From the NCBI GenBank assembly GCA_963720265.1, contig CAVRET010000001.1, positions 521,113 to 567,794 on the forward strand: DNA of 46,682 nt, read 5' to 3'. Shown here piece by piece: positions 2,454 through 42,373 of the stretch. Positions within the stretch are counted from its first letter, which is position 1. Each line of letters opens with the position of its first letter. Under the pieces are notes generated by a model. That model made no database searches. It saw only the letters and a list, made by a program, of their open reading frames with translations, and was not told where the DNA came from. The position numbers were made by a program, and so were the translations under genes. Source of the DNA: an uncultured bacterium (lineage in GTDB: Bacteria > Patescibacteriota > Saccharimonadia > UBA4664).

Positions 2454-3233
2454 ATGGGCTTTAGAATACGTAAATCAATCAAACTTGGTGGCGGTGTCCG
2501 GCTTAATTTGAGCAAGAGCGGGATCGGAATGAGCGCCGGCGTCAAAGGGATGCGCCTAGGCATCAACAGCAAGGGGCAACGATACACAAACGCCAGTATC
2601 CCGGGAACGGGTTTGTCGTATCGAACTGGCTCATCGCGAGGGACTGCCAAAAAGCAAGCCGTAGCCTCCGCTGCGACTTTTGAGCAACAGGCTAAGGTCG
2701 CGCTGCTTGAAGGTGCCAAAGCAGCTAAGAACAAAGATTTTACTGCCACCCTGAAGTTTGCAAGACAAGCCGAGGCGCTCGATCCTAGTAACTCGCAAGT
2801 TGATTTGATGCTCGCCGCGAGTCTAGGTAGCTTGCAGCACTGGACTGAAGCAGCGCGATACTACAATCGCTACCTTGCGGTAGACCCAACCAACAGAGTG
2901 CACGTAATGGCGCTTGCCGCCTGCTATCTCCAGCTCCACAAGTATGATCAGGCAATTCAAACTATCAAAACGATTCCGGAACCAGACTGGACGCTCAGCA
3001 ACAGACGGCTCTTGGCCGACTGCTACGGCGGGGGCCAAGATTATCCTGCCGCAATTGCAGTACTTCGAGCTGCCTCCATTAATACTCCCAATCCAGACCA
3101 CGATACACTGAAAACGATCTTCACCTTGGGCAAGATGTTTAAGCAAACCGGCGACCAAAATCATGCGCGCAGGTGCTTTGAACGTGTCCACGAGTTTGAG
3201 CCAGAATTTCCTGGTCTGGCATCGGAGCTTTAA
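2454..3233 (+). CDS. DUF4236-like N-terminal domain fused to TPR repeats
   Basis: The N-terminus MGFRIRKSIKLGGGVRLNLSKSGIGMSAGVKGMRLGINSKGQRYTNASIPGTGLSYRT matches the glycine-rich DUF4236 pattern. The C-terminal half has TPR-like helical repeats (ARYYNRYLAVDPTN, ALAACYLQLHKYDQA). Confidence 0.6.
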   Translation: MGFRIRKSIKLGGGVRLNLSKSGIGMSAGVKGMRLGINSKGQRYTNASIPGTGLSYRTGSSRGTAKKQAVASAATFEQQAKVALLEGAKAAKNKDFTATLKFARQAEALDPSNSQVDLMLAASLGSLQHWTEAARYYNRYLAVDPTNRVHVMALAACYLQLHKYDQAIQTIKTIPEPDWTLSNRRLLADCYGGGQDYPAAIAVLRAASINTPNPDHDTLKTIFTLGKMFKQTGDQNHARRCFERVHEFEPEFPGLASEL

Positions 3234-3307: not shown

Positions 3308-4006
3308 ATGGAAGACATTCGCCCTAATCGGCCACAAAAACCCTCGGACCAAGTTCACCGCCGGCCAATGCATGCTGCCGCTACAGCGAATCATCCCGTA
3401 GAGGCCACTCCGGTAAGCCACATTCAAGACAGTCGCCCGGTGTCAACGGGTCGTCTAGTGTTGTACTTTGCTGGCCCTATAATTGGGATTGTTGCCAGCA
3501 CAATCTTATTTGCTATCGTCTCGTTTGTCGTCAACTCTAGCGGCTCAATGCAGGGAGGGGTGTTTCAAACAGTCAGTGACACGCTTGTATTCTTGCTCGG
3601 CGGAGTGTGCGTCATTCTGATACCGGTTGGAATCGTCCTCGGTACAATGGGGGTATCTCGCAATAACCGCGCTGCTGCTGGTGCTCAGGCCGTCGTTAAG
3701 ACCGCAGAGAACACCCTCGAAGCGAGCAAAGGGTGGAACTGGGGCGCATTCTTGTTTACTTGGATATGGGGTGTCGCCAATGGTGTGCCAAAGAGCCTTT
3801 GGGCATTGATACCAATCTGGAACATTGTATACGCCTTTATTCTTGGTGCGAAAGGTAATCAGTGGGCCTGGGAAGGTCGTGACTGGACCAGCGTAGAGGA
3901 TTTTCGTGCCAGCCAACACAAATGGGCTATCTGGGGGCTCATCATCTACGGAATCATATTCGTGCTCTACCTGATTGGAGCAGTCTCCGGTAATAACAAC
4001 AGCTAG
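3308..4006 (+). CDS. Hypothetical multi-pass membrane protein
   Basis: Disordered N-terminus, then several hydrophobic spans. C-terminal WNWGAFLFTWIWGVANGV ... GAKGNQWAWEGRDW is a motif seen in small uncharacterised membrane proteins. Confidence 0.4.
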   Translation: MEDIRPNRPQKPSDQVHRRPMHAAATANHPVEATPVSHIQDSRPVSTGRLVLYFAGPIIGIVASTILFAIVSFVVNSSGSMQGGVFQTVSDTLVFLLGGVCVILIPVGIVLGTMGVSRNNRAAAGAQAVVKTAENTLEASKGWNWGAFLFTWIWGVANGVPKSLWALIPIWNIVYAFILGAKGNQWAWEGRDWTSVEDFRASQHKWAIWGLIIYGIIFVLYLIGAVSGNNNS

Positions 4007-4083: not shown

Positions 4084-5253
4084 GTGGCACAACGTCAGCG
4101 AAACAAACTAGGCCGAAACGACCCCTGCTTTTGTGGCAGTGGTCTCAAGTACAAAAAGTGCTGCCTACCTAAGGGTGAACGACCGTGGCGGCCGAGTGAT
4201 GATGTGCCCCCGGAAGTCCTCCAGGCCTATTACGAGGCAAACCGCGAACGCGTTGACCTCCAGGCGAAGGGTATTTACATTAACTTGCCTAATACTGATA
4301 CGTTCCAGGGCAAGTCGTTTATGGCGGTTGGTAGCCGATTAATGTATGAGAACCGGCCAAACGTGCCGAATCATGAAATGCTGCTCTTGCACCTACAACG
4401 GGTGCTTGGCAAGGAGTGGTGGGAGGCAGAGACTGCCAAACCTATCGAACAGCAACACTTTATCCGGCGGTGCTTTAGTGAGGTCAGCGCCCATCCCTTC
4501 ACAGCCGAGCAGGATTTGCGGCAAGAGACACCCGATTTGCGGTCGTTTTTACCCACCGGCAACCTCCAAGCTCTGATGAGTTTGGCATTTGACGTGTACT
4601 TGCTTGAGCACAAAGCGAGCTTACCCGATGACTGGCTACGCCGGCTGCGACACCGCGACCAGTATCAAGGCGTGAGGCATGAGATTGCCGTGGCCTCAAT
4701 CTTTATTCGGATTGGTTGCCGACTCGAGTTTTACCCGGACGCGGGTGCCACGGTCAAACACCCGGAGTTTGCAGCCATACATGATGAGACCGCCAACAAG
4801 GTGGCGGTCGAGGTAAAAAGTCGGCACCGGCGGGGCGTTATCAATAGGCCCGGCCAGCCAGACCTAAAAAAGGCCGCGCTCGGTGACGTTGAACACCTAT
4901 TTGACGCCGCCTTGGAGAAAGAGACTGACGGCCTGCCGTTTATGGTATTCATTGATGTGAACGCTCCCTCGGCCAAGGACCAGCCGACAGCGGAAACCCA
5001 GTGGTTTGCCGATATCAAACAGATGATCGAAGCTAAAGGCACAAACTCACCCGCGCACCCCGAACCCTACAATGCGCTCTGGGCTACCAACTATTCACCC
5101 CACTACGATGGCAACGATGTTACCTATAGCGGCGGCTACGCCGTCGTTGCTAATACTCATGTTCAGCATTCGATTAATGGTGGCTTGCAGGGCGAGTTCA
5201 TGAATCGACTCATGCAGGCTGTCGCGAGCTATGGCTTTGTCCCAAAACTTTAA
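4084..5253 (+). CDS. SEC-C motif protein with a C-terminal PD-(D/E)xK nuclease-like motif
   Basis: GTG start. The N-terminus has NDPCFCGSGLKYKKCC (SEC-C metal-binding motif). The C-terminal region has HEIAVAS ... HPEFAAIHDETANKVAVEVKSRH, which fits the E ... PE ... ExK spacing of restriction-endonuclease-like folds. The nuclease assignment is inference. Confidence 0.5.
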   Translation: MAQRQRNKLGRNDPCFCGSGLKYKKCCLPKGERPWRPSDDVPPEVLQAYYEANRERVDLQAKGIYINLPNTDTFQGKSFMAVGSRLMYENRPNVPNHEMLLLHLQRVLGKEWWEAETAKPIEQQHFIRRCFSEVSAHPFTAEQDLRQETPDLRSFLPTGNLQALMSLAFDVYLLEHKASLPDDWLRRLRHRDQYQGVRHEIAVASIFIRIGCRLEFYPDAGATVKHPEFAAIHDETANKVAVEVKSRHRRGVINRPGQPDLKKAALGDVEHLFDAALEKETDGLPFMVFIDVNAPSAKDQPTAETQWFADIKQMIEAKGTNSPAHPEPYNALWATNYSPHYDGNDVTYSGGYAVVANTHVQHSINGGLQGEFMNRLMQAVASYGFVPKL

Positions 5254-5323
5254 GCATAAGCGTGTTACATGAGATGTCTCGTACCCCCCGACTGGGACGG
5301 GGCTACGGGACGTTACCCGAACC
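5254..5323 (+). repeat. Intergenic repeat family copy E (long form)
   Basis: Sequence is gcataagcgtgttacatgagatgtctcgtaccccccgactgggacggggctacgggacgttacccgaacc. The 3-prime 34 nt match copy B (38523-38556) at about 27/34 positions, and tttaagcataag is shared with copy B. It lies between convergent genes. Confidence 0.55.
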
Positions 5324-5362
5324 GATTGAGCTTGCCCTTGACTAATTATTCCCCGGTTTTCG

Positions 5363-6094
5363 CTAGACGAGGCCCGGTAGGATTGCGCTAACGTAACGAT
5401 TGAAGCTTGGGGCTTTGCCGTCCCCAATTAACTTGAGGATCATGCCATCGGTAATATGGGCAACGATCATCTCTACTTCGTCTGTATGCTTATCATATTT
5501 TTTGCCGACTAACTGGAGAATGTTTGATACTTCGGGTGCTGGATGCAAAAAGGTCGCTTCAGGTGAGATTGTAGCCAAGTCATAGCCTAAAGAGTCTTGG
5601 ATGAACTTGAATGATAGCTTGCTGTCAATCGCTTCAAATAGACCAGGCATTGAAAGCATCCAGGCCTCGGTTTCCATCTCTGCATACGAAAATTGAACCC
5701 TGCCCTTGGGGTCGGCATCTTCTGACTGTTTTGCGGCGCTTTCTCGATACACCTCATTTAAGGATAGGTCTAGCTTGCCGCCGCTCAGTCGCAAATAGTC
5801 GCTTCCGTATAGATCTTTGAGCCCAACCACAACCTCAGAGCCCCTAAAGAGGAGCCCTTCGAGACGATCTTTTAGAGACGACAGAACACTACCGTCGCCA
5901 GGTGCAATGAAGATGTTGTAGTAATTGGAGGCAGAAGAGTTTGTACTAAAACTCCTAAGCGGTTTTCCTGCTCCGCTTGACTTGGACAATGCGATTATGT
6001 CTACGTATAAATCACCCAGCGGGATGCTTTGCTCAAGTAGAGCGCGTGTAAATATCGCTTCCGTTTGGCCCTCTACAAAGATGGCCGCTTTCAC
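5363..6094 (-). CDS. Toprim-like / DUF4276-like protein, partner of the upstream ATPase
   Basis: The N-terminus MKAAIFVEGQTEAIF has a Toprim/DUF4276-type hVEGxTE acidic motif. A later acidic cluster is YAEMETEAWML. Its start lies 2 nt after the stop of ORF 6097..7215 on the same strand. Confidence 0.55.
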   Translation of the reverse strand: MKAAIFVEGQTEAIFTRALLEQSIPLGDLYVDIIALSKSSGAGKPLRSFSTNSSASNYYNIFIAPGDGSVLSSLKDRLEGLLFRGSEVVVGLKDLYGSDYLRLSGGKLDLSLNEVYRESAAKQSEDADPKGRVQFSYAEMETEAWMLSMPGLFEAIDSKLSFKFIQDSLGYDLATISPEATFLHPAPEVSNILQLVGKKYDKHTDEVEMIVAHITDGMILKLIGDGKAPSFNRYVSAILPGLV

Positions 6095-6096
6095 CG

Positions 6097-7215
6097 TTAG
6101 CTCTTTTCTAGATAATCAGACGAGAAAAGATCGAAATTACTTAGTCCAGTTAGGCGAAACTTGTCAAAGGCTTCCTTTTTGTTTGTGTAGTTTGCGGCCT
6201 TTACTTCCCCGTGAGCTCTGGAGAGTATATTCCATTTTTCTATGTCCACTCCGTTCATAAGCACTCTGCTATTCGTGGCCGCAATCAGCTGAACATTTGG
6301 TAGCGCCAGTTTTTCAAAAACAAGTTTTGACAGTCTGTTAGCTCGGTCATAATCTAGGCCTTCATCCAGGTCGTCAATTAAGACCAGGTTCTCGGCGCCC
6401 TTCTTTTTACTCCTGATGTACTCAACTAGAATTAGGAGCGAAAGTGCTCTCACCAAACCCGTTGAAAGTTCTATCTGGGCAATTGGGAGGTCTTGCCCCT
6501 CGGGTTTGACGTTGAGCATCTTTATGTCTAGCCCCAGGCCTAATTCTGGGTTTGTGGCCATTGAAACATTCTCGAGTTGATATCCGATATGATTCATATT
6601 GCTAATTACGTTTTTTACATCCGCATCATCTAGGTCAGCCAGCAACGGACCCGCCGCCTGAAGGCCGATGTTCCCCAGAAGTTGATCTGCTGACTCAGGA
6701 GTCTTTATCAAGTTAACTAAGTTGTTTGCATTAACATCTGCAAAACCGACTCGCAAGGTGTTTGAAGCCCAGTTGTTAAGACTAACAAAATAGGGGTATT
6801 CAAATTCGTCCGCTCGAGACTGCATAACAAGCTTATCGGCAGGAGGTTGAATGTCTTCATCCTGTTTAGATTTTTCACTGAATAGTTTCGTGCCTTGCTT
6901 GGTCCGAGTTAGCTTAACCGATCCTGACACTGAAAGCTTTTCCTCGACAATAGTTTTGTCGATAGCTACCTTTAATTTGTACATAATTTCCGTGCCGTCG
7001 CGTTCGAATGTCGCGTCCCAGCTACCGGGAGATAGAGTCCTTTTTCCGGTCAACATTTGAGAGAAGTTAGATATCAGATTAAGCAGGCGTGTCTTTCCTA
7101 CCGCATTCATTCCGACAACGAGATTCTGATCTTGTAAGACTACCCCGCTAATAGACCAAGGATTGCGGCCAAGTTGGCGTAGGTCTTCTGAGTAATTAAA
7201 TGCTTTGAGCTTCAT
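6097..7215 (-). CDS. ABC-type (AAA_15/AAA_21-like) ATPase
   Basis: Walker A is GMNAVGKT, the signature-like motif is ELSTGLVRAL, and Walker B is LVLIDDLDEGLD followed by QLIAATNS. There are no transmembrane segments. It forms an operon with 5363..6094. Confidence 0.7.
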   Translation of the reverse strand: MKLKAFNYSEDLRQLGRNPWSISGVVLQDQNLVVGMNAVGKTRLLNLISNFSQMLTGKRTLSPGSWDATFERDGTEIMYKLKVAIDKTIVEEKLSVSGSVKLTRTKQGTKLFSEKSKQDEDIQPPADKLVMQSRADEFEYPYFVSLNNWASNTLRVGFADVNANNLVNLIKTPESADQLLGNIGLQAAGPLLADLDDADVKNVISNMNHIGYQLENVSMATNPELGLGLDIKMLNVKPEGQDLPIAQIELSTGLVRALSLLILVEYIRSKKKGAENLVLIDDLDEGLDYDRANRLSKLVFEKLALPNVQLIAATNSRVLMNGVDIEKWNILSRAHGEVKAANYTNKKEAFDKFRLTGLSNFDLFSSDYLEKS

Positions 7216-7371
7216 ATCGAGTAGAGTATACCAAAATACGCTAACTAAATCCTGCTCATGGGGCTTAATGGGCTAACATCCATTAGTCTCTGCGCGTTGA
7301 TTCCGCGCCTAATAGGCATTCGTGTTGGTTAGTTATAATGAGTTACGGAATATACTTGGAGATCAATAAGG

Positions 7372-7974
7372 ATGGATCCAACTCAAAAACAATTGGCTGA
7401 GCTTGCCGTACAGCTTGGAGAGGTGACCGTCAGGAATACGGCGGGGGCAATTTTAGATAAAGTTCGTGCGGCTAAAGTCAGAAAGAATGACAAAGAAACA
7501 ATCAGTCAGCTTGAAGAAATAATAAGTAGCTTGATATCGGATAAAAACGATTTAGTTCAAATTGCTCAGACGTATGAACAAGAATTTGCAGCTCAGAGAA
7601 TCTCAAAAGAAGACATTAATTATATTACTGAAAAATTTGTGCCTACTTTGCGAGAGCTACTGAAGAAGCTTCCTAACAGTGACAGCAGTACGGCAAATAT
7701 GGAGCAAACTTTTGATGTCTTGAAGCCTATAATGTCGGTTGAAACGCTTACGATTCTTCAGCTGTTAGGATTCAATTTTAAACGAGGTATTGGTGAGCCC
7801 CTAACAGTACTCCTTCAGAAGTTTATTCTGTCGAAGGCACCTTCTGAACAGTCATCAGATCTGGAGTTGAGTAAGCTGATTGCTGCGCAGAACACCGAGT
7901 TCTTAAAGTTGGCGCAAGATAAAGAGTCCTCCAAAAGGTATCAGGTTCTAAATGGAAGTGCTGTTAAAAAATAG
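7372..7974 (+). CDS. Hypothetical all-helical protein
   Basis: 200-aa ORF with RBS aagga upstream of the ATG. No motif recognised. It is divergent from the ATPase operon. Confidence 0.35.
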   Translation: MDPTQKQLAELAVQLGEVTVRNTAGAILDKVRAAKVRKNDKETISQLEEIISSLISDKNDLVQIAQTYEQEFAAQRISKEDINYITEKFVPTLRELLKKLPNSDSSTANMEQTFDVLKPIMSVETLTILQLLGFNFKRGIGEPLTVLLQKFILSKAPSEQSSDLELSKLIAAQNTEFLKLAQDKESSKRYQVLNGSAVKK

Positions 7975-8121: not shown

Positions 8122-8733
8122 CTACGTGCATGTCCCAGGGGACTCCCCTGCGGCATTCGGCGTGCAGCCGCCAGTGGAGTTGAATAAGTTGCCCTGGATG
8201 ATTAGCACGTAGAAAAGGTACCCAACGATTAACGCTAAGATGACATACCAAAAGATCTTCTTGGCCTGAGCGTTATTGTTATCGCGTATTTCCGCTCGTA
8301 GTTTCTCTAGTTCGTTCCGGTGCTTTTGTTCCACTTCTTCCAAAGTCTCGGCGCCCAGAATGTGAGAGTAGACGGCTTTATTTTCCTTGTCCACCCGGTC
8401 AACAATTTCAACAACAGGATTTTTTAGCTCAAGACCCGACAGCCCTGGAGCGTCCTTGTATTTGCTGTATGGCCTTCTAACTCCTATCAGTCCGCGGAAT
8501 ATGTAGGACTGTCCAGTCTTCAGCCTGCCGCGCATTTGTAAATCATGGTCCCAGATGACGTGGAACGACCCTGTTTTGTCACTTATGTAACATTCTGTAC
8601 CGCTGCCGACTCCATCCCCATCAAATGTAGTCAAGTGCAAGTTGGTAGTGCCCATTAAGGCCACGGGCTTGCCAGGGATGGGGTTATTGCAAGCGGAGAT
8701 GCTAATTATTGGAGTTTTGATTATCTTCGGCAT
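8122..8733 (-). CDS. Hypothetical protein with a coiled-coil segment and a C-terminal transmembrane helix
   Basis: 203-aa ORF with a beta-rich N-terminal half, a helical ETLEEVEQKHRNELEKLRAEIRD segment, and a TM helix IFWYVILALIVGYLFYVLII. Confidence 0.35.
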   Translation of the reverse strand: MPKIIKTPIISISACNNPIPGKPVALMGTTNLHLTTFDGDGVGSGTECYISDKTGSFHVIWDHDLQMRGRLKTGQSYIFRGLIGVRRPYSKYKDAPGLSGLELKNPVVEIVDRVDKENKAVYSHILGAETLEEVEQKHRNELEKLRAEIRDNNNAQAKKIFWYVILALIVGYLFYVLIIQGNLFNSTGGCTPNAAGESPGTCT

Positions 8734-8910: not shown

Positions 8911-8945
8911 AAACACAATGGCTGGGGTGGCCGGATTCGAACCAC
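8911..8945 (+). repeat. Repeat family copy F1; reads as a tRNA 3-prime end remnant on the minus strand
   Basis: Sequence is aaacacaatggctggggtggccggattcgaaccac. The reverse complement of 8919-8943 is GGTTCGAATCCGGCCACCCCAGCCA: T-loop, 3-prime T-stem, acceptor strand, discriminator and CCA. No matching 5-prime half follows, so it is a fragment and not a gene. Confidence 0.6.
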
Positions 8946-9011: not shown

Positions 9012-9263
9012 ATGGCTACAAAGACACTCAATATCGCCCTCGATGAGAGGCTTATCAAGGACATAGACGAGGCTGTTAAAAGCGATATGGGTAGCCGGAG
9101 TGAGTATTTCCGCCGACTTGCGATGAAGGACTTGGAGCGTCGACGCGAGTGGAGGCAAGTGCTTGATGCAGCCAACGAAAAAGGCCGCAAGATGGGTATA
9201 ACAAGCGAGCAGCAGGTATACGATATCATAGCGGAGTATAAGCGTGACAAACGCGGTAAGTAG
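9012..9263 (+). CDS. Ribbon-helix-helix (CopG-like) antitoxin
   Basis: 83 aa. The N-terminus KTLNIALDERLIKDIDEAV...SRSEYFRRLA has the RHH pattern. It overlaps the downstream PIN gene by 20 nt. Confidence 0.7.
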   Translation: MATKTLNIALDERLIKDIDEAVKSDMGSRSEYFRRLAMKDLERRREWRQVLDAANEKGRKMGITSEQQVYDIIAEYKRDKRGK

Positions 9264-9666
9264 TGCTCGTGTCGTAATAGATACAAATATTTTCGTCTCG
9301 TCTATTGTGTTTGGAGGTAAGCCGCGCCGCGTGTTGGATGCAGTGGCAGATGATACCATCACACTTGTTACGGCAGAGGAGTTAGTTACCGAAATTCGGC
9401 GCGTGATCTTAACTAAATTCCCGGATTTTTTACGAGATCTCAAGAAGGTAGAGAAGTTAATCGAGTCAGATGCAACCTGGGTAAAGCTGGGTTTACTTTC
9501 ACTATCAGTAAGCCGAGATCCTGATGATGATAAATTTATTGAAGCCGCACTTATTGGAGATGCTAAATATATTGTGAGTGGAGATAGAGATTTACTGGAT
9601 CTAGGGGCATACAAGGCGATTAGGTTTGTGACACCCGATGAGCTCCTGAAGCATTTCGCAAAATAG
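9244..9666 (+). CDS. PIN-domain toxin (PIN_3 / TIGR00305-like)
   Basis: 140 aa. Contains VVIDTNIFVSS (first acidic PIN motif), DDDKFIEAAL, and YIVSGDRDLL near the C-terminus. Confidence 0.7.
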   Translation: MTNAVSSARVVIDTNIFVSSIVFGGKPRRVLDAVADDTITLVTAEELVTEIRRVILTKFPDFLRDLKKVEKLIESDATWVKLGLLSLSVSRDPDDDKFIEAALIGDAKYIVSGDRDLLDLGAYKAIRFVTPDELLKHFAK

Positions 9667-9674
9667 CGAGCCGC

Positions 9675-9710
9675 AGGCTCAATGGCTGGGGCGATTGGCT
9701 TCGAGCCAGA
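9675..9710 (+). repeat. Repeat family copy F2; degenerate tRNA-3-prime-end-like
   Basis: Sequence is aggctcaatggctggggcgattggcttcgagccaga. It shares aatggctgggg (11/11) with F1, and 15/17 of tgRctggggcgatWgg with copy C. The reverse complement is GGCTCGAAGCCAATCGCCCCAGCCA. Confidence 0.55.
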
Positions 9711-23465: not shown

Positions 23466-26084
23466 GTGGCGGTTATCCGGCGAATACGATTGGTTAAACA
23501 ACCTTATCTTGGGTATGTGCAGGCAGCACTGGTTGTTTTTGTCGTGGTGCTATTGGGCTATTTTGTGGTGCGTTCGCACGCTTCGACGCTGGTGGGCGAT
23601 TTGAACAACGACGGGGTGGTGAACGTATTTGACCTGTCGATCATGCTCAGCGACTGGGGCACGAACAATGCAATTGCAGATCTGAATGGTGATGGTGTTG
23701 TGAATGTGTTTGATTTGTCGATACTCTTATCGCACTGGGGCGATACCGGGACGCTGACGAGTATTAGCATTGACGGTACGAGCAGCGGCCAGGTGTTTGA
23801 CGGGATTGGCGCGATTTCTGGCGGCGGGGGCAATTCGCGTTATATCAGCGATTATCCAACGAGTCAGCAGTCGCAAATGATGAACCTCATGTTTAAGCCA
23901 GATTATGGTGCATCGCTGCAGATTTTGAAGGTGGAGATTGGCGGCGATACCAACTCGACGGACGGGGCTGAATCCAGCGTTGAACATACGCAAGGTACTA
24001 TTAACTGCAATGCCGGGTATGAGTGGCAAATGATGCAAGCCGCCAAGGCGCTGAATCCCAATATTAAGCTGTACGGCCTGGCATGGGGCGCACCTGGGTG
24101 GATCCCCAGCCATACCTTTAATTCGTCCGGCACCATTAGTTACTTGATCGATTGGCTCAATTGCGCCAAGCAAAAAGGGTTGACCATAGATTACCTAGGC
24201 GGGCAGAACGAGAAGGCGTATAGCGATAGTTGGTACGAGAGCTTACGCACGGCGCTGAATGCGGCCGGCTTTACTTCGACGCAAATTGTGGCCGCGGACC
24301 AGTTTGGGGGCAATGGATCGAGCGGAGCGGCAGCCTTTAGCGTAGCGAACGATATGGCGTCTGATTCGACGCTGAAGAGTGACATTGGGGTCGTGGGCGC
24401 GCACGACGTGTGTGATTATCCCACGGACGGGCTTGAGTGCTACAGCACGGCGACGGCCGAGGGCTTGGGCGTGCCTCTGTGGATTAGCGAAGCCGGGCAT
24501 ATGGACGGTAATACCGGTGCGGCTGACATTGCCCGCACCTTTAACCGCGGCTACCAGGACGCAGGGCTGACCGGCTACATTCAGTGGCCGCTGCTCGACG
24601 CTATGCCGCCCGGCATGCCGCATGAGAATTACGGCCTTATTACGGCCGATGAGCCGTGGAGCGGTTACTTTACGGCTAACCACCAGATTTGGGCGTTTGC
24701 CCACACCACGCAGTTTACGGAGCCGGGGTGGTATTACGTGGATTCAGGCACCGGCTTTTTGGGCGGCGACCGCACGAACGGCAGTTATGTCACGTATAAG
24801 TCCCCGGATAATTCGGATTGGAGTATGGTGGCGGAAACGTCCACGGCTACGCAGGACCAGACGATTAGTGCCAATATCACCGGGGGCTTGAGCACCGGCA
24901 TGGTGCACGTATGGGCGAGCAACCTAAATTCGACCGATCCTAATCAATGGTTCCAACAACAAGCCGACATAACGCCCGCCGGCGGATCGTTTACCTATAC
25001 GTTGCAGCCGGGTTACATCTACACGTTTACTACGACTACGGGACAGAGCAAGGGCAGTGCCGGCACGATACCGGCAGCGGGCACGCTTAAGCTCCCCTAC
25101 TCTGACACGCTTTCCAGTATGGATAGCTCAAATGAAGCCAAGTACCTGGCCACGATGAGCGGCGCGTTTGAAGGCGCTGCTTGCGCCGGCGGGGTGTCCG
25201 GTACCTGTTTGCAGCAAAACGTTCCGACCGATCCGATTGACTGGAACTCAACGTCGCCGCCGTATGCGATTATTGGCGATAACACCTGGCAGGATTACAC
25301 AGTGAGTACGAGCATTTTATTCAAGAATGCCGGCTCGTCGGCCGGCGTGATTGGGCGGTTTGGCGACCAGGCCGGCAGTGTTACAAACTTTAACGGTTAT
25401 TTGCTGCAAGTGAACGATACTGGTACGTGGAACATCTATAAGAACAATAACGGTGGGTCACCCACTTCACTTGCTTCCGGCACCGTGACGGCGCTGGGGA
25501 CGAATAGCTGGCATACGGTGTCACTCGCACTTTCCGGTTCGAGTCTCACGGCCTCGATTGACGGGCACGTGGTGGGGAGTGCTAGCGACAGCTCGTACGC
25601 CTACGGGCCGGCCGGGATTGATGCCGGTATGTTTGCCAATGCTTGGCCGATTGTGCAGTACCGCAACTTTTCGGTGACCGGCAGCAATGCGGCTGGGTTT
25701 GTGGGGCCGGTGTATGCCGGCCAAATCGATAAGTGCCTCGATAATTACCAGGGCGCAGCCACGAACGGCAACAAAACCGATCTGTATTCATGTAATTACA
25801 CCGATGCCCAGCGCTGGCAGATTATGAGCGACGGAACGCTTAGGACACCGGCGGGCAAATGCATGGAGATTGTAGGATCCGGCACGGCAGACGGGAGTTT
25901 AATTGACATTAATACCTGCACCGGCGGCGCCAATCGGGTGTGGCAGTCGGTGAATGATACGCTGGTAAACCCGGCCACGGGCAAGTGTCTGGACGATCCC
26001 AGTAGTTCGACCACGAACGGTACCCAGCTCGATATCGCGACCTGTGATGGGTCGGTTGGGCAATATTGGACGCTGCCGCAATAG
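23466..26084 (+). CDS. Secreted/anchored glycoside hydrolase family 59-like (galactosylceramidase-like) with two N-terminal dockerin-type repeats and a C-terminal ricin-B (CBM13-like) lectin
   Basis: Signal-anchor AALVVFVVVLLGYFVV. Repeats DLNNDGVVNVFDLSIMLSDWG and DLNGDGVVNVFDLSILLSHWG. GGGNSRYISDYP...LMFKPDYGASLQILKVEIGGDTNSTDGAESSVEH closely follows the GALC/GH59 catalytic-domain signature. The C-terminus has three QxW repeats (AQRWQI, NRVWQS, GQYWTL). Confidence 0.7.
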   Translation: MAVIRRIRLVKQPYLGYVQAALVVFVVVLLGYFVVRSHASTLVGDLNNDGVVNVFDLSIMLSDWGTNNAIADLNGDGVVNVFDLSILLSHWGDTGTLTSISIDGTSSGQVFDGIGAISGGGGNSRYISDYPTSQQSQMMNLMFKPDYGASLQILKVEIGGDTNSTDGAESSVEHTQGTINCNAGYEWQMMQAAKALNPNIKLYGLAWGAPGWIPSHTFNSSGTISYLIDWLNCAKQKGLTIDYLGGQNEKAYSDSWYESLRTALNAAGFTSTQIVAADQFGGNGSSGAAAFSVANDMASDSTLKSDIGVVGAHDVCDYPTDGLECYSTATAEGLGVPLWISEAGHMDGNTGAADIARTFNRGYQDAGLTGYIQWPLLDAMPPGMPHENYGLITADEPWSGYFTANHQIWAFAHTTQFTEPGWYYVDSGTGFLGGDRTNGSYVTYKSPDNSDWSMVAETSTATQDQTISANITGGLSTGMVHVWASNLNSTDPNQWFQQQADITPAGGSFTYTLQPGYIYTFTTTTGQSKGSAGTIPAAGTLKLPYSDTLSSMDSSNEAKYLATMSGAFEGAACAGGVSGTCLQQNVPTDPIDWNSTSPPYAIIGDNTWQDYTVSTSILFKNAGSSAGVIGRFGDQAGSVTNFNGYLLQVNDTGTWNIYKNNNGGSPTSLASGTVTALGTNSWHTVSLALSGSSLTASIDGHVVGSASDSSYAYGPAGIDAGMFANAWPIVQYRNFSVTGSNAAGFVGPVYAGQIDKCLDNYQGAATNGNKTDLYSCNYTDAQRWQIMSDGTLRTPAGKCMEIVGSGTADGSLIDINTCTGGANRVWQSVNDTLVNPATGKCLDDPSSSTTNGTQLDIATCDGSVGQYWTLPQ

Positions 26085-37952: not shown

Positions 37953-38448
37953 TTAGCGCGTTTTTGTATGATTCAGAAGATCGTCAGCTATACTTTCAAC
38001 TGGTTTTGTAGCATCAAGCCTGAACGCCCTGGGGTCGATAGCTGCGCTCATTTCTTTATGCACAGAGAGTATTAGCTGCCTTTCACTGGCGGATTTACCA
38101 TATTCCTTGCTTCTCGTATCAAGCCGTTCATTCAATACATCAAGAGGAATAGCCATCCAGATGTACTCGTCGGCAGCAGCCTTCACCTCCTCGAGATTAT
38201 CAGGATTACCAAGCAAGAAAATATCCTTAGTGCTTGATTGTTCCTTGAGTTTTCTTAGTGATTTTGTAGGGAATACCCAATTATAACCTTCAGCTTTAGC
38301 TTTCGTAATCTAAGGGCTCTCCGTTTATTTTTGACTGCCTAACGCATTCAGTATCGGTATCGTGTGCTTCCTTACCTCGATTGCGAAGTTCGTTCATAAG
38401 AGTAGTCTTGCCGGTGCCGGATGCTGCAGATATGAAATATAATGCCAT
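37953..38448 (-). pseudogene. P-loop NTPase / small kinase-like gene with a frameshift
   Basis: Hand translation from ATG 38446-38448 gives MALYFISAASGTGKTTLMNELRNRGKEAHDTDTECVRQSKINGEPLDYES* (Walker A is SGTGKT). Removing one A from the AAA run (plus-strand ttt at 38301-38303) joins it to ...AKAEGYNWVFPTKSLRKLKEQSSTKDIFLLGNPDNLEE..., the frame of ORF 37953..38216. Confidence 0.55.
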
Positions 38449-38510
38449 GCAAGAATTTTACCATCTTACATTCGCCTGTATTAACGCGAAAAGACCTCTG
38501 AAGAAGTCTC

Positions 38511-38556
38511 TTTAAGCATAAGAGTTTTGGCCGGGGCTATGGGGCGTTATCCGAAC
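38511..38556 (+). repeat. Repeat family copy B (full form)
   Basis: tttaagcataagagttttggccggggctatggggcgttatccgaac. It aligns along its length with copy D2 (41764-41803) and with the ends of copy E. Confidence 0.55.
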
Positions 38557-38704
38557 AATTCGTACTTAAACGTCTAGATATGATGTGAAGCTGAGTACAG
38601 TGCAAGGTTACGCGGTGCGCTCGATATTTATAAGGGCGGCACTAGCTAATTTCGGGAATTGTAGTCTTTTTGGACTTCCAAATTACATCAGAGGATCTTC
38701 ACTG

Positions 38705-39280
38705 CTATACGTTGGCAGGTGTGCCTGCGAATTTTTTTAGTGTCGCCGCTGAGAGATCATCGATACTCGCGTTTGATTGCTTAAGAGTGGAATAAAGGGC
38801 GTTAAATAGTTGATTTTGATGAGTCCAGCCTTTTGTTGGGATCTGCGCTTGTGCTCCCATTTGGTCGAGAACAACGAATACCGCAGGTAAATAAATGGGT
38901 ATAAAACCGCTGCCAGATGCTGACGAGACTTTGAATCGAGACGGTTTGTATACGCAACTTTTTAAGCTCGATAAGTCGACAGCTGAAGCTACAGGAGCGC
39001 CGTTGGGTGCATATGCGAGCTGGGTACCGTAGGCATTCAACCGTCCAAATCCATATCTTGATAATCCATATGAAAGGTAGGTGAGGAAGGCAGATATTGC
39101 ATATAAGAGACAGACTACATACACCACGGCGACAGCCTGATATTTAAATAGTCCGAATGCTCCGAACAAAATTGCCAGGACAATCATTACAGCCAGAACA
39201 GAACCGCTAATCTGGACTGGCTTCATCCACCGAAAACTCATCGTTGGTTCATTGGTTGGGGAGGAATGTCGTTGATCCAT
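38705..39280 (-). CDS. Hypothetical membrane protein
   Basis: 191 aa with two or three N-terminal TM spans (VLAVMIVLAILFGAFGLF, AVAVVYVVCLLYAISAFLTYL). No motif recognised. Confidence 0.35.
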   Translation of the reverse strand: MDQRHSSPTNEPTMSFRWMKPVQISGSVLAVMIVLAILFGAFGLFKYQAVAVVYVVCLLYAISAFLTYLSYGLSRYGFGRLNAYGTQLAYAPNGAPVASAVDLSSLKSCVYKPSRFKVSSASGSGFIPIYLPAVFVVLDQMGAQAQIPTKGWTHQNQLFNALYSTLKQSNASIDDLSAATLKKFAGTPANV

Positions 39281-39351
39281 TTTTTAGCTGGCCCTTTTAT
39301 TTATATCCGGATAGCCTTGAGGATTTACGTGAACTTGGTACGCCAAGAGGG

Positions 39352-39978
39352 CTAGTGGGCGATTGGAGTTGGTGTATATGCCTTCTTCCCGCGGTGGATA
39401 AACCAACGTACGAACAGCGTAGCAACGGTTGCGATTAGCACCAGTACCCAGATTAGAGTGTTATTTGTCTGCGCTCCAAGTAGGCTACAAATGAGCGAAA
39501 GTACAATGAAAATAAAAATTCCAAGCATAAACCATAGGACAAACCCCCACATTAGTGAAATTATCCTTGGGTTAGGATCACCAGACGTTTTGAAATGCTG
39601 CGATAGGGCCGTTTTCCATTGTGCGTCAGTCAGCGCTCCAGCCATTTGCCGACCGGCCCAGTAGCCTTGACCGGCGCGGCCCATTAGCCCGAAACCCACT
39701 GTGCCTGGATTATAGAACGCGATTTCCGTAACTTTGCCAGTTTTTGGGTGAACTCGCATCCACCCATACGCGAACTGGATGAAGTCGACATCAGCCGGCG
39801 TATATTTCATGAGGGCCACCCCGTCTGCACCGGTAAACGTAAGTGCAGTACTGTCAAAGCTCAAGGTGCCTTTGCGTGTGCCGAAACCGTACATACGGCC
39901 ACCAAGCCAAGCCGGGGACTGTGCTGGCATAGGCGCGGCAGGATGCTGAGGTAATGGACTCTGTGTTTCGGGGTTCAT
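39352..39978 (-). CDS. Hypothetical protein with a soluble N-terminal domain and a C-terminal 2-TM anchor
   Basis: 208 aa. The N-terminus is Pro/Gln-rich. C-terminal TMs are LMWGFVLWFMLGIFIFIVLSLI and LIWVLVLIATVATLFV. Confidence 0.35.
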   Translation of the reverse strand: MNPETQSPLPQHPAAPMPAQSPAWLGGRMYGFGTRKGTLSFDSTALTFTGADGVALMKYTPADVDFIQFAYGWMRVHPKTGKVTEIAFYNPGTVGFGLMGRAGQGYWAGRQMAGALTDAQWKTALSQHFKTSGDPNPRIISLMWGFVLWFMLGIFIFIVLSLICSLLGAQTNNTLIWVLVLIATVATLFVRWFIHRGKKAYTPTPIAH

Positions 39979-40207
39979 GCGTTTTACGTTGTTTCCTTAC
40001 GCAAAGCATAGATTAGTTCGAGCATAAGCACAATACAGCTTCTAGTAGCTAACAAATGTAACGGAGCCTAAGCTTCATCAGCTGGATGTTGCCGGTGCGT
40101 GGTCAAAATTACGAGATATGAGTGGCGACTGTGTACTTTTGCTTTCAGCATTTTTCCTACGCGGACGATTAATGTAGAGTATGCATAATAATTAGTTAGG
40201 CTTATTA

Positions 40208-40939
40208 ATGAGCGCAAATATCCCGGGCGGAAAAACAAATGAATTGGGCCAAATAGTTGTAACAGTAGGGTCGCAAACTATTGTCGTTCCCCAGCAAATC
40301 ATTGATGCGCAGCGCAAGGTCCGCTACCCTTTTGTGTATCTCATAATTGTTACTCCGCTCATTGCCCTATGTACCTATCTCGTTATTTTGAGCGAAGGAA
40401 GTGAAGCGAGATTAGCAGCGCAGATAAAGCAAAATTTAGTTGCAACAACTGCTACCGCTACCGTGGTTACTACCCCGGAGCGGGGTGCGGCCCGTTATAC
40501 CATGACTTATACCTTTTCCGTTCCAGGGAGCAATCAAAAATTTGTCAACACTGATTATTCTACCGACGCAGCGAGTTCCTTGAATACGGAGGAATTTAAC
40601 CGTCTCTCCACCAAATTAGGTCTGGGGATAAACCTCAACGCGCAAAATGGCTACCGCAACACAGGCCCCATTTCCATCATGTACGACAGCCAAGACCCTG
40701 CTAAAAACCTCACGCAATTTGATATAAAAACCTTGAGAGCCCCCAAAACATTTGCGAAAGAAGCCGTCATCAATGTCTTTTTGTTTTGGCTATTCCTTTT
40801 CGTGCCGTTGGGATTTTTGATTCGCATGATTATCAGGCAAAATGTCTGGTTTAAATATCAAGGCCAGGTTTTGTTACAGCTGCGGAAGGCCAGGCTGCAA
40901 CAGAAAGCCGAAACCGTCGAACCTGCGACAAGTAAATAA
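40208..40939 (+). CDS. DUF3592-like membrane protein
   Basis: A TM, then a beta-rich region (ATATVVTTPERGAARYTMTYTFSVPGS ... ISIMYDSQDPAKN), then a TM. This matches the DUF3592 layout and its V.YDP.NP-like motif. Confidence 0.45.
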   Translation: MSANIPGGKTNELGQIVVTVGSQTIVVPQQIIDAQRKVRYPFVYLIIVTPLIALCTYLVILSEGSEARLAAQIKQNLVATTATATVVTTPERGAARYTMTYTFSVPGSNQKFVNTDYSTDAASSLNTEEFNRLSTKLGLGINLNAQNGYRNTGPISIMYDSQDPAKNLTQFDIKTLRAPKTFAKEAVINVFLFWLFLFVPLGFLIRMIIRQNVWFKYQGQVLLQLRKARLQQKAETVEPATSK

Positions 40940-41150
40940 GTCATTTCCCGGTTAGGTCCATATGTAGCCAATCTGCTACGCATTGCTGGGAGGGCTTATT
41001 AGCTGTGTCATCAACGCGTGCAAAGCCGCACGGTTTCCTAATAGGGATTGCGAAAAATAAGCCGCGCGATAGAGCTAAGGATAGAGATTCTTCAAGCTAT
41101 TCCCGGCAGATATAAATTGCTACAAAAAAGACCGTTTATGGAACACGATC

Positions 41151-41186
41151 CTTACTATGACTGGGGCGATAGGACGTTATCCTAAC
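41151..41186 (+). repeat. Repeat family copy C
   Basis: cttactatgactggggcgataggacgttatcctaac. It contains the hairpin tagga-cgtta-tccta. The reverse complement is GGATAACGTCCTATCGCCCCAGTCA, with the same layout as F1 and F2. Confidence 0.5.
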
Positions 41187-41318
41187 TTAAGCCATTGCGT
41201 GAGGCGGCGTAGAAGTGAAATAGTCACTATCTGTCTTGCCCGAATATTCATTGTTCCTATTCAAAGCGAGCGCGTAAAATAATTTATATATGCAGCGACT
41301 AATGAACGGGAGTCGAGT

Positions 41319-41540: not shown

Positions 41541-41730
41541 TTGCGGTAATGATTCCATTTCTTGTTGAGGCGGGATCGATCAAGCGTGTCGGCTTTTTTG
41601 TTGGTGCTGTAGTACGCCGAGTACAGTAAATTCCGATATTGCCACCGTTTTGGGGAGCGATAATGGAAGCCGATGAATCGTTGACAGACCTACAGTTGAG
41701 TTCCAGAGCCTGCTATCACCACCCCCTTGA

Positions 41731-41803: not shown

Positions 41804-41806
41804 ATT

Positions 41807-42268: not shown

Positions 42269-42284
42269 GTCGGGACTATATCAT

Positions 42285-42355: not shown

Positions 42356-42373
42356 CGGAAGTGGGCGCCTGGG

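What the first reader, a model, noticed from the sequence alone, without database searches (positions are those of the whole stretch)
5363..7215. Two-gene ABC-type ATPase plus Toprim-like (DUF4276-like) operon with split-OLD / PARIS-like architecture
The 372-aa protein has Walker A GMNAVGKT, an ABC-signature-like LSTGL and Walker B LVLIDDLDEGLD, with no membrane domain. Its stop (6097-6099) lies 2 nt from the start of a 243-aa protein. That protein opens with MKAAIFVEGQTE (a Toprim-type acidic motif) and has a second acidic cluster, AEMETEAW. A soluble ABC/AAA ATPase coupled to a Toprim nuclease-like partner is the logic of OLD-family nucleases, Gabija GajA and PARIS AriA/AriB. I cannot assign this pair to a named system from sequence alone. 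It sits in a low-GC block with other conflict-type genes, so it is my best candidate for an uncharacterised defence module.
Basis: partly seen in the sequence, partly recalled or inferred. Interest (0 to 1): 0.72.

Follow-up and report, generated by a model that had tools for sequence, protein, structure and literature searches.

The report
Split OLD-like ATPase–Toprim nuclease gene pair
Two tightly coupled genes encode a soluble ABC-type ATPase and a DUF4276 (Toprim-like) nuclease partner, forming a mobile two-gene module of a type already catalogued as a candidate anti-phage defence (HEC-01, MADS3-4, AbiL, PARIS); it is a real but fairly ordinary new clade of that group.

Summary
Both ORFs exist on the minus strand (ATPase 6097-7215, partner 5363-6094), 2 nt apart, with every quoted motif. 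Pfam places them in AAA_21 and DUF4276, both above gathering score. The pairing is not chance. In 80/80 reference-genome loci and 23/24 viral-contig loci, the same ATPase family lies directly upstream of the partner. The two proteins co-diverge (r = 0.85), and no third gene is conserved. The partner keeps E8, E12, D94, E141, E143 and K202 in at least 113 of 115 relatives. This matches the published two-metal site of Burkholderia OLD residue for residue, except that DxD is DxY. Foldseek found no Toprim structure in PDB; the best viral match is an RloB-like (AbiLii-type) protein. The pair is not PARIS, AbiL or MADS. It is a distinct clade closest to the PADLOC candidate HEC-01, which has one negative and one positive phage test. 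Its ATPase is unusual: Asp replaces the catalytic Glu and Asn replaces the H-loop His. The most likely function is an ATPase-controlled nuclease defending against phages or mobile elements, but this is untested. It is a new member of a known kind, of moderate-to-low interest.

The parts
6097..7215 (-). Gene for a 372-aa soluble ABC-type (SMC/Rad50/RecF-like) ATPase. Walker A is at residues 35-42, the signature LSTGL at 250-254, Walker B plus D-loop LIDDLDEGLD at 279-288, and Q309...N315 sits at the H-loop position.
   Evidence: ORF. Pfam AAA_21 36.5 bits, above cutoff 27. Invariant N37 G40 K41 S251 G253 R256 D281 D282 E285 G286 L287 D288 Q309 N315 in 77/77 homologues. AF2 model pLDDT 91.6. Best PDB matches are PtuA, SMC and Rad50 heads, E about 1e-11, TM about 0.5.
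5363..6094 (-). Gene for a 243-aa DUF4276 protein. It has an N-terminal Toprim-like alpha/beta domain (about residues 1-139) and a C-terminal helical domain (about 140-243). The putative metal-binding and catalytic residues are E8, E12, D94, E141, E143 and K202.
   Evidence: ORF. Pfam DUF4276 34.0 bits, above cutoff 30.2; OLD-like_TOPRIM 18.6 bits, below cutoff, residues 2-45. 115/115 relatives hit DUF4276 and 103/115 hit OLD-like_TOPRIM. Column conservation. AF2 model pLDDT 91. Top BFVD match is an RloB-like protein, TM 0.46/0.51.
6095..6108 (-). Gene junction. The ATPase stop TAA (6099-6097) is followed by 2 nt and then the partner's GTG (6094-6092). A Shine-Dalgarno-like GAAAAGAG lies at 6108-6101, inside the end of the ATPase gene. 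This is the layout expected for translational coupling.
   Evidence: Sequence read. In 80 genome loci the partner starts mostly 0-30 nt after the ATPase ORF.
7216..7371 (-). A 156-nt intergenic region upstream of the ATPase gene, divergent from the + strand ORF at 7372-7974. It is the presumed promoter region of the two-gene operon. No promoter was identified.
   Evidence: ORF map. The consensus promoter scan found nothing here and was not above shuffled expectation. No Rfam family was found in the window.

Best explanation
This is a self-contained, horizontally mobile two-gene operon. The first gene encodes a soluble ABC ATPase of the SMC/Rad50/RecF-like AAA_15/21 group. The second gene is translationally coupled to it and encodes a DUF4276 protein. 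That protein is the equivalent of the catalytic C-terminal region of OLD-family nucleases: a Toprim-like domain followed by a helical domain. Together these appear to build a two-metal nuclease site from E8, E12, D94, E141, E143 and K202. By analogy with PARIS, Gabija, OLD, AbiL and HEC-01, the ATPase most likely forms a complex with the nuclease and keeps it inactive. It would then release or activate the nuclease on sensing an invading phage or mobile-element cue, and the nuclease would cut DNA or RNA to abort the infection. In this ATPase family an Asp replaces the catalytic Glu after Walker B, and an Asn replaces the H-loop His. I infer from this that ATP binding acts more as a conformational switch than as fuel for fast hydrolysis. 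Shown here: the gene structure, family membership, strict pairing and co-divergence, motif conservation, mobility, and the ABC fold of the ATPase model. Inferred: the Toprim fold in detail, nuclease activity, complex formation, the defence role, the trigger and the substrate.
For: Family membership: AAA_21 and DUF4276 are both above Pfam gathering scores. Obligate partnership: 80/80 genome loci and 23/24 viral-contig loci have the family ATPase immediately upstream on the same strand. No third gene is conserved; the largest flank cluster covers 11/80 loci at variable positions. In L004 the flanking gaps are only 31 and 17 nt, which excludes a conserved flanking RNA. Co-divergence gives r = 0.85, with 0/2000 permutations reaching it. 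Nuclease site: E8 114/115, E12 114/115, D94 115/115, E141 113/115, E143 115/115, Y200 114/115, K202 115/115. These correspond in order and secondary-structure position to BpOLD E400, E404, D455, T506, E508 and K562, which were shown by mutagenesis to form the two-metal nuclease site (PMC6755086). hhalign places AIFVEGQTE on P2 Old LLVEGKTET. 103/115 members hit OLD-like_TOPRIM. The top BFVD match is an RloB-like protein over the full length, and AbiLii/RloB superimposes on OLD PDB 6NJV (PMC13064643). DUF4276 is published as a Toprim member (PMC12065111). Mobility: the pair occurs in unrelated contexts, namely a serine-recombinase element, next to ligA, and next to rpsB-tsf. It occurs in many phyla, on plasmids and on IMG/VR contigs. 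It sits in the lowest-GC part of the region. In a relative with 76% identical LigA it lies at a different locus. Defence link: 113/115 partners hit HEC-01B models and 27 hit mad4. ATPases hit AbiLi (77/77) and HEC-01A (62/77). A HEC-01 representative protected E. coli against at least one of T4, T5 and T7.
Against: Foldseek of a confident model (pLDDT 91) against PDB gave no match at E <= 0.001 and no Toprim protein in the top 50. A profile search of PDB sequences found nothing. The canonical second Asp of the Toprim DxD is absent: the position is Y, F or H in 108/115 sequences. The only other tested HEC-01 gave no protection. The window proteins match HEC-01 models only weakly: A at 4.8e-07, B at 8.4e-04 over the N-terminus only. 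Immediate neighbours in 80 genomes are mostly housekeeping genes, with only a handful from defence systems, so defence-island association is weak. No relative was found in 50,697 deposited phage genomes. An archaeal OLD-family ATPase has a non-defence role in the cell cycle (PMC12796447, abstract). No experiment exists for this clade.
Confidence: 0.65

Rival explanations
1. The pair is primarily a selfish toxin-antitoxin-like addiction module. The nuclease is the toxin and the ATPase its protein antitoxin. The module stabilises the mobile elements or islands that carry it, without a dedicated anti-phage role.
For: It has a two-gene, translationally coupled architecture and strict co-inheritance. 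It is carried on a serine-recombinase element and on plasmids. It neighbours an RHH-PIN TA cassette. PARIS itself behaves as a type II TA, according to the review read. Association with defence islands is weak.
Against: Related ATPase-Toprim pairs that have been tested (PARIS, AbiL, one HEC-01) do protect against phage. Many copies sit in ordinary chromosomal contexts with no mobile-element genes nearby. The two roles are not mutually exclusive.
Confidence: 0.15
2. The pair has a cellular nucleic-acid housekeeping role, such as repair, recombination or the cell cycle. It would be analogous to RecF (ABC ATPase) with RecR (a Toprim protein), or to the archaeal OLD-family ATPase Cran1.
For: The ATPase's Walker B and D-loop read IDDLxEGLD, and its best structural matches are SMC, Rad50 and PtuA heads. 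There is a weak RecF model hit over the signature to D-loop region. Many loci are flanked by housekeeping genes. In Bacteroides finegoldii the pair lies inside a capsule operon. Cran1 sets a precedent (PMC12796447).
Against: Distribution is patchy and crosses phyla, with at most 38% identity to any species-representative genome. The genomic position differs between relatives whose LigA is 76% identical. The pair has low GC and occurs on plasmids and viral contigs. Some copies are pseudogenised, as in L013 and L048. The RecF score is 25.5 bits against a cutoff of 172.
Confidence: 0.08
3. The pair is simply a member of an already named system: PARIS (AriA/AriB), AbiL (AbiLi/AbiLii), or a detached Mad3-Mad4 fragment of MADS.
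For: The ATPase's best PADLOC hits are AbiLi (4.5e-16) and an AriA model (1.7e-14). 27/115 partners hit mad4 and 8/115 hit AbiLii. The top BFVD structural match is RloB-like.
Against: The partner has no DUF4435 hit. RloB is hit by only 1/115 members. The window partner hits only HEC-01B in PADLOC. The 'AriA' hit is to a 304-position model spanning the same positions as Pfam AAA_21. The NCBIfam MADS3 model scores 23 bits against a cutoff of 420, and the partner has no NCBIfam hit at all. No methyltransferase or other mad gene is nearby.
Confidence: 0.05
4. The pair is an inactive relic, intact in reading frame but no longer functional.
For: It lies in a region with decayed integration scars, namely tRNA-3'-like repeats without a tRNA. 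No promoter was detected. The nearly invariant R135 of the ATPase (74/77) is Ala in the window protein.
Against: Both ORFs are full length, and every invariant catalytic residue is retained. The start matches the family N-terminus. Truly decayed copies elsewhere show split ORFs (L013, L048), and this one does not.
Confidence: 0.03

Closest known systems
HEC-01 (PADLOC 'Hma-embedded candidate 01': ABC ATPase HEC-01A + TOPRIM protein HEC-01B; Payne et al., bioRxiv 10.1101/2024.01.29.577857)
   Same: Both are two-gene systems with the order ATPase then Toprim-like partner. 113/115 partners of this family hit HEC-01B models (best about 1e-11 to 2e-12), and 62/77 ATPases hit HEC-01A models (best 9e-17). 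A bona fide HEC-01B found in L054 carries the same motif set: VEGKTE, VDFF, HEFEAL and YHK.
   Different: The matches are weak. For the window proteins, A scores 4.8e-07 and B scores 8.4e-04 over the N-terminus only. The family profile finds the L054 HEC-01B at only 17 bits. The L054 HEC-01A has the canonical IIIDEPELGLHP and ISTQS, whereas this ATPase has IDDLxEGLD and TSN(D/S). The pair here is not embedded in an Hma system. In L054 the two kinds of pair sit side by side as separate systems.
OLD-family nucleases (P2 Old, Burkholderia/Xanthomonas class 2 OLD, Thermus class 1 OLD)
   Same: Both combine an ABC ATPase with a Toprim-plus-helical-domain nuclease. The catalytic constellation corresponds: ExxxE, D after beta3, (T/E)xE at the start of the helical domain, and a helical-domain Lys. 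The VEGxTE motif aligns with P2 Old 397-402.
   Different: Here the two halves are separate polypeptides. DxD is DxY/F/H. The ATPase lacks the OLD-type DEPE..LHP and STHS motifs. OLD-like_TOPRIM is hit only below Pfam's cutoff. Foldseek did not retrieve OLD structures.
PARIS (AriA ABC ATPase + AriB DUF4435 Toprim nuclease)
   Same: It is a split two-gene ABC ATPase and Toprim effector whose genes co-evolve without partner swapping (compared). PARIS is the mechanistic model in which an ATPase sensor sequesters and then releases the nuclease.
   Different: The partner here is DUF4276, not DUF4435. The ATPase is 372 aa, against about 55 kDa for AriA, whose coiled-coil insertions build a hexamer. 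AriA is not among the top 50 structural matches. The trigger and substrate are unknown here.
AbiL (AbiLi ATPase + AbiLii RloB-like Toprim protein)
   Same: AbiLi is the best-scoring PADLOC family for the ATPase (77/77 members, best 7e-24). An RloB-like phage protein is the best structural match of the partner model.
   Different: The partner does not belong to Pfam RloB (1/115 members at E <= 1). Only 8/115 hit AbiLii. The AbiLi match covers only profile positions 80-244 of 326.
MADS Mad3-Mad4 (AAA ATPase + DUF4276 within the eight-gene methylation-associated defence system)
   Same: It has the same Pfam pairing, AAA_15/21 plus DUF4276, listed as an ABC ATPase and TOPRIM pair. 27/115 partners hit mad4 and 24/77 ATPases hit mad3.
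   Different: The NCBIfam MADS3 model scores 23 bits against a cutoff of 420, and the partner has no NCBIfam hit. No methyltransferase or other mad gene accompanies the pair here or as a conserved neighbour elsewhere.

Membership tests
Pfam AAA_21 / AAA_15 ABC-type ATPases | Score at or above the Pfam gathering threshold | tested here: met
   AAA_21 scores 36.5 bits against a cutoff of 27, over residues 31-320 and profile positions 2-303 of 304. AAA_15 scores 30.8, just under its cutoff of 32.1.
ABC (SMC/Rad50-like) ATPase fold | Walker A, signature motif, Walker B and D-loop are conserved, and the model matches ABC heads | tested here: met
   G40, K41, S251, G253, D281 and D288 are invariant in 77/77 sequences. 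The AF2 model has pLDDT 91.6. Foldseek finds PtuA, SMC and Rad50 at E about 1e-11, probability 1.00, TM about 0.5. The catalytic Glu is Asp (D282) and the H-loop His is Asn (N315).
Pfam DUF4276 | Score at or above the Pfam gathering threshold | tested here: met
   The protein scores 34.0 bits against a cutoff of 30.2, over residues 7-209. 115/115 relatives also match.
Toprim superfamily | Conserved Glu in the beta1-alpha1 loop | tested here: met
   E8 follows strand 2-7 and precedes helix 10-23. It is conserved in 114/115 sequences. It aligns with the P2 Old VEGKTE motif.
Toprim superfamily | DxD motif after beta3 | tested here: not met
   D94 ends strand 88-94 and is invariant (115/115). The +2 position is Y 79, F 19 or H 10 of 115 and is never Asp. 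A bona fide HEC-01B shows the same D-x-aromatic pattern.
Toprim superfamily | Four-stranded parallel sheet (order 2-1-3-4) between helices, recognisable by structure comparison | tested here: inconclusive
   The secondary-structure order is compatible, with an extra hairpin at 29-48. Foldseek against PDB gave no Toprim hit. The top BFVD hit is an RloB-like protein, TM 0.46/0.51, E 1.3e-3.
OLD-family nuclease catalytic region | Two-metal site: E, E(+4), DxD, TxE at the start of the helical domain, and a helical-domain Lys (BpOLD E400, E404, D455, D457, T506, E508, K562) | tested here: inconclusive
   Six of seven positions have conserved counterparts in the same order: E8, E12, D94, E141, E143 and K202. 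The D457 equivalent is missing. The correspondence rests on sequence and secondary structure only. OLD-like_TOPRIM scores 18.6 bits, below its cutoff of 23.2.
OLD-family nuclease | ATPase and Toprim on one polypeptide | tested here: not met
   There are two separate ORFs. All of the best 150 relatives of the partner are 223-302 aa stand-alone proteins.
PARIS | Partner is AriB, with a DUF4435 Toprim domain | tested here: not met
   The window protein has no DUF4435 match. DUF4435 is not among the 25 families most often matched by the 115 relatives. It has no AriB hit in PADLOC.
AbiL | Partner is AbiLii (RloB family) | tested here: not met
   The window partner has no RloB or AbiLii hit at E <= 1. 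Only 1/115 members hit RloB and 8/115 hit AbiLii.
MADS | Mad3 and Mad4 equivalogs together with the methyltransferase and other mad genes | tested here: not met
   The MADS3 model scores 23 bits against a cutoff of 420, and the partner has no NCBIfam hit. No methyltransferase lies nearby.
HEC-01 (PADLOC candidate) | Adjacent genes matching HEC-01A and HEC-01B models | tested here: inconclusive
   HEC-01A scores 4.8e-07 over nearly the full length. HEC-01B scores 8.4e-04 over residues 3-41 only. The family as a whole does hit HEC-01B (113/115) and HEC-01A (62/77), but weakly. PADLOC itself, with its own thresholds, could not be run.
Anti-phage defence system (functional class) | Protection against phage or mobile elements on expression | not testable with these tools
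   Only indirect evidence exists. One HEC-01 test was negative and one was positive. No member of this clade has been tested.

The most novel reading that the evidence does not exclude
This clade has at least 1,472 clusters at 50% identity and is always a stand-alone pair. It could be a mechanistically distinct defence family rather than just a divergent HEC-01. In that reading, an ABC ATPase whose catalytic Glu and H-loop His are replaced (D282, N315) acts as a non-hydrolysing or very slow ATP-gated switch. It would control a split OLD-type nuclease with a DxY active site, responding to a trigger and cutting a substrate that differ from those of PARIS, Gabija and OLD. A more exotic version is suggested by copies embedded in a Bacteroides capsule operon and in housekeeping contexts: a non-defence role in nucleic-acid metabolism.
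Probability: 0.2. Interest if true: 0.55.

Novelty: new member of a known kind. Interest (0 to 1): 0.35.

Why it matters
ABC-ATPase plus Toprim modules (OLD, Gabija, PARIS, AbiL, HEC-01, MADS3-4) are among the most widespread bacterial immune architectures. The DUF4276 branch, however, has no solved structure, no known trigger and no known substrate, and the experimental results for it conflict. This work defines a coherent and abundant clade of that branch. It gives explicit residue-level predictions for the nuclease site (E8, E12, D94, E141, E143, K202). It also identifies an unusual ATPase catalytic set (D282, N315). These features make the clade a clean target for mutagenesis and structural work. 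For annotation, the result shows that current PADLOC and NCBIfam models do not capture this clade well. It does not open a new category of biology.

Tried and rejected
1. Foldseek of the partner model against PDB gave no hit at E <= 0.001 and no Toprim protein in the top 50. A profile search of PDB sequences gave zero hits.
2. I spent the last large homology search on the Toprim half of P2 Old, to build an OLD-Toprim profile for hhalign. It returned only 5 near-identical fragments, so no profile-profile test was possible. hhalign against the single P2 Old sequence aligned the right motif, but at probability 3%.
3. The source organism could not be identified. The window protein is not on record, and housekeeping proteins are unnamed singletons.
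4. The promoter and terminator scan found nothing above shuffled expectation. Rfam and ARAGORN found no RNA gene.
5. A conserved third gene or flanking RNA was rejected.
6. Defence-island enrichment was checked. Immediate neighbours in 80 genomes are mostly housekeeping genes and only a few belong to defence systems. No proper background rate was available, so I make no enrichment claim.
7. The window's neighbours as system components were rejected. They have no PADLOC matches beyond the SEC-C zinc motif, and they are not shared with the closest homologous loci.
8. Phage carriage was checked. There is no match in deposited phage genomes. 24 IMG/VR contigs carry the pair, but I could not confirm that they are viral.
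9. The capsule-operon context seen in B. finegoldii is not general; only 2 other loci share any of those genes.
10. PARIS, AbiL and MADS membership were each tested and rejected (see the membership table).
Full report
OBSERVATION. The ATPase gene is 6097-7215 (372 aa, ATG start). The partner gene is 5363-6094 (243 aa, GTG start). The ATPase stop TAA (6099-6097) is separated by 2 nt from the partner's GTG. A purine-rich GAAAAGAG lies 6-13 nt upstream of that GTG, which is the layout of translationally coupled genes. All quoted motifs are present. The genes sit in the lowest-GC part of the left end of the window: 0.42-0.49 over 5-9 kb, against 0.52-0.61 further right. They are real genes. Homologues reach E = 7.5e-184 for the ATPase and 3e-99 for the partner.

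FAMILY ASSIGNMENT. Pfam places the ATPase in AAA_21 (36.5 bits, cutoff 27). It places the partner in DUF4276 (34.0 bits, cutoff 30.2). The partner also has a sub-threshold OLD-like_TOPRIM hit on residues 2-45. That hit is not a one-off. Among 115 relatives scanned one by one, 115 match DUF4276 and 103 match OLD-like_TOPRIM. An exhaustive profile search found 1,472 clusters at 50% identity at E <= 1e-3 and 686 at E <= 1e-30. The best 150 are all stand-alone proteins of 223-302 aa.

IS THE PAIR A UNIT? Yes.
- The closest homologues lie in three unrelated contexts, always as ATPase then partner: a serine-recombinase mobile element, downstream of ligA, and next to rpsB-tsf in Candidatus Magnetomonas.
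- In 80 of 80 loci from species-representative genomes, an ATPase of this same family lies immediately upstream on the same strand, mostly 0-30 nt away. These genomes are mostly Bacteroidota, but also include Firmicutes, Planctomycetota, Cyanobacteria, Desulfobacterales and Saccharibacteria.
- The same holds for 23 of 24 IMG/VR contigs; the exception is cut at the contig end.
- No third gene is conserved. The largest cluster of flanking proteins covers 11 of 80 loci at variable positions.
- In L004 only 31 and 17 nt flank the pair, which excludes a conserved flanking RNA.
- Pairwise identities of the two proteins across 80 non-redundant loci correlate at r = 0.85, with 0 of 2,000 permutations reaching this value. 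The correlation is still r = 0.76 among pairs below 50% ATPase identity. The two proteins therefore co-diverge without partner swapping, as published for AriA and AriB.

MOBILITY. An organism whose LigA is 76% identical to the window's carries a 62%/53% identical pair directly after ligA. In the window, ligA is 36 kb away from the pair. None of the other L004 neighbours occurs in the window. Copies also occur on a Bacteroides finegoldii replicon and on a Paraburkholderia symbiosis plasmid, where they are annotated 'AAA family ATPase' and 'DUF4276 family protein'.

THE PARTNER PROTEIN. The AF2 model is confident (pLDDT 91, pTM 0.89). Residues 1-139 form an alpha/beta domain: strands 2-7, 57-63, 88-94 and 133-138 alternate with helices, and there is an extra hairpin at 29-48. 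Residues 140-243 form a helical domain. Across 115 relatives, E8, E12, D94, E141, E143, Y200 and K202 are each conserved in at least 113 sequences.

The Burkholderia OLD paper (PMC6755086) showed that the OLD catalytic region is a Toprim domain plus a helical domain. Its two-metal site is built from E400, E404 (ExxxE), D455 and D457 (DxD), T506 and E508 at the start of the first helical-domain helix, and K562 in the helical domain. The family here has counterparts in the same order and the same secondary-structure positions:
- E8 and E12, also spaced ExxxE.
- D94 at the end of beta3.
- E141 and E143 at the start of the helix after beta4.
- An invariant K202 in the helical domain.
The one missing element is the second Asp of DxD, which is always aromatic here (Y, F or H). 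hhalign places AIFVEGQTE on P2 Old LLVEGKTET (residues 394-402), although this is not statistically significant against a single sequence.

Against all this, Foldseek of the model against PDB found no significant match and no Toprim protein in the top 50. Against BFVD, the top match is a phage 'RloB-like protein' aligned over the full length (probability 1.00, TM 0.46/0.51, E 1.3e-3). RloB/AbiLii has been superimposed on OLD PDB 6NJV in the literature. DUF4276 has been published as a Toprim superfamily member. I therefore treat the OLD-like Toprim-plus-helical nuclease reading as well supported by sequence and literature, but not confirmed by my own structure comparison.

THE ATPase. The AF2 model is confident (pLDDT 91.6). 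It is an ABC head. Its best PDB matches are PtuA of Septu and of retron systems, SMC heads and Rad50 (E about 1e-11, TM about 0.5). AriA and GajA are not in the top 50. Walker A (N37, G40, K41), the signature motif (S251, G253, R256), Walker B with the D-loop (D281, D282, E285, G286, L287, D288), Q309 and N315 are invariant in 77/77 sequences.

Compared with P2 Old (IDEPELYLHP, ISTHS) and with a bona fide HEC-01A (IIIDEPELGLHP, ISTQS), this family differs at two sites. It has Asp where the catalytic Glu normally follows the Walker B Asp, and Asn at the H-loop His position. I infer from this slow hydrolysis, or switch-like use of ATP. This is inference only.

RELATION TO NAMED SYSTEMS.
- PARIS is excluded, because the partner is not DUF4435.
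- AbiL is excluded, because the partner is not RloB/AbiLii, even though AbiLi is the ATPase's best PADLOC hit.
- MADS is excluded. The MADS3 model scores 23 bits against a cutoff of 420, the partner has no NCBIfam hit, and no methyltransferase lies nearby.
- The closest catalogued class is PADLOC's HEC-01 (ABC ATPase plus TOPRIM). 113/115 partners and 62/77 ATPases hit HEC-01 models, but weakly: best about 1e-12 and 9e-17, against within-family E-values of 1e-46 to 1e-184 for the ATPase hits listed.
- The window proteins themselves score only 4.8e-07 (A) and 8.4e-04 (B, N-terminus only).
- In L054 a bona fide HEC-01 pair sits in tandem with a pair of this family. Its B protein has the same motif set (VEGKTE, VDFF, HEFEAL, YHK). 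Its ATPase shares only the P-loop region with the window's.
This is therefore a distinct clade within the known theme of an AAA_15/21 ATPase paired with a DUF4276 Toprim protein. The PARIS paper already lists that theme ('AbiL and MADS3-4') beside OLD, Gabija and PARIS.

FUNCTION. There is no experiment on this clade. One HEC-01 gave no protection in E. coli. A cold-seep HEC-01 protected against at least one of T4, T5 and T7. Several features argue for an accessory conflict module: patchy cross-phylum distribution, low GC, variable location, carriage on mobile elements, and occasional pseudogenised copies such as L013 and L048. Defence-island association is weak, however. Immediate neighbours in 80 genomes are mostly housekeeping genes, with only a few from other defence systems. 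In the window, only the RHH-PIN pair is a recognisable conflict gene. An archaeal OLD-family ATPase with a cell-cycle role is a reminder that the architecture does not guarantee defence.

My best estimate is as follows. That this is a co-evolving ABC ATPase plus OLD-like DUF4276 nuclease module: about 0.9. That it works as an ATPase-gated nuclease in phage or mobile-element defence: about 0.6-0.65.

VERDICT. The novelty is modest. This is a new and well-delimited clade of an already catalogued kind. It has two noteworthy but unexplored deviations: the DxY nuclease motif, which it shares with at least one HEC-01B, and the Asp and Asn substitutions in the ATPase. Interest 0.35.

Noticed in passing
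window 8916-8944 and 9680-9708: A 29-nt direct repeat (79% identical). Read on the minus strand it is the 3' part of a tRNA (TGGTTCGAATCCGGCCACCCCAGCCA: T-loop, 3' T-stem, 3' acceptor strand and CCA) without the 5' half. ARAGORN and Rfam find no tRNA. The two copies bracket the RHH-PIN cassette, like decayed att-type integration scars.
   Followed up: partly
window 9012-9263 (+) and 9244-9666 (+): An overlapping RHH/HicB-like antitoxin gene and PIN_3 toxin gene (PIN_3 E = 1e-21). This is a type II toxin-antitoxin pair about 1.8 kb from the ATPase-Toprim operon.
   Followed up: partly
window 4084-5253 (+): A 389-aa protein convergent with the pair. It has an N-terminal SEC-C zinc motif, and the remaining ~360 residues have no family match. 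A D...EVK-type stretch (VAVEVKSR) hints at a PD-(D/E)xK nuclease. This was not tested.
   Followed up: no
window 2454-3233 (+) and 3308-4006 (+); 7372-7974 (+) and 8122-8733 (-): The low-GC block also holds a DUF4236+TPR protein, a multi-pass membrane protein and two proteins with no Pfam or PADLOC match. None of them is conserved next to the pair elsewhere.
   Followed up: partly
L113 (Bacteroides finegoldii NZ_OY725969.1) 4932-6723: The pair lies inside a capsular-polysaccharide operon on the same strand. It sits between the tyrosine kinase and the flippase, downstream of a UpxY antiterminator. Only 2 other fetched loci (L043, L051) share any of these flanking genes.
   Followed up: partly
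L054 3085-4808 and 4904-6708: Two different ATPase and Toprim-like pairs sit in tandem in a Saprospiraceae genome. A bona fide HEC-01 pair, with the canonical DEPE..LHP ATPase, lies directly upstream of a pair of this family.
   Followed up: partly
L013 4923-5992, L048 4752-5986, L046 about 4965-5294: In these loci the ATPase gene is split or truncated while the partner is intact. This suggests occasional decay of the module.
   Followed up: no
window 38000-42900, next to ligA (43238-45256, -): A second low-GC stretch (0.44-0.49) downstream of ligA has several ORFs without Pfam matches. In a relative with 76% identical LigA, the ATPase-DUF4276 pair occupies the position right after ligA. That site may therefore be a hotspot for variable genes in this lineage.
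   Followed up: partly
window ATPase residue 135 (codon at 6811-6813, - strand): Arg135 is present in 74 of 77 family ATPases, next to the invariant D136. It is Ala in the window protein. The significance is unknown.
   Followed up: no
L089-L105 (IMG/VR contigs, many from sample 3300045988): About 17 viral-classified contigs carry an almost identical pair. Similar pairs occur in Bacteroides (L008, L010) and in Firmicutes genomes (L009, L022). This suggests recent cross-phylum spread on one element. The viral nature of the contigs could not be confirmed.
   Followed up: partly
window 23466-26084 (+): An 872-aa secreted-type protein combines a dockerin, a GH59 galactocerebrosidase-like catalytic domain and a ricin-B lectin domain. 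This is an unusual combination and is unrelated to the finding.
   Followed up: no
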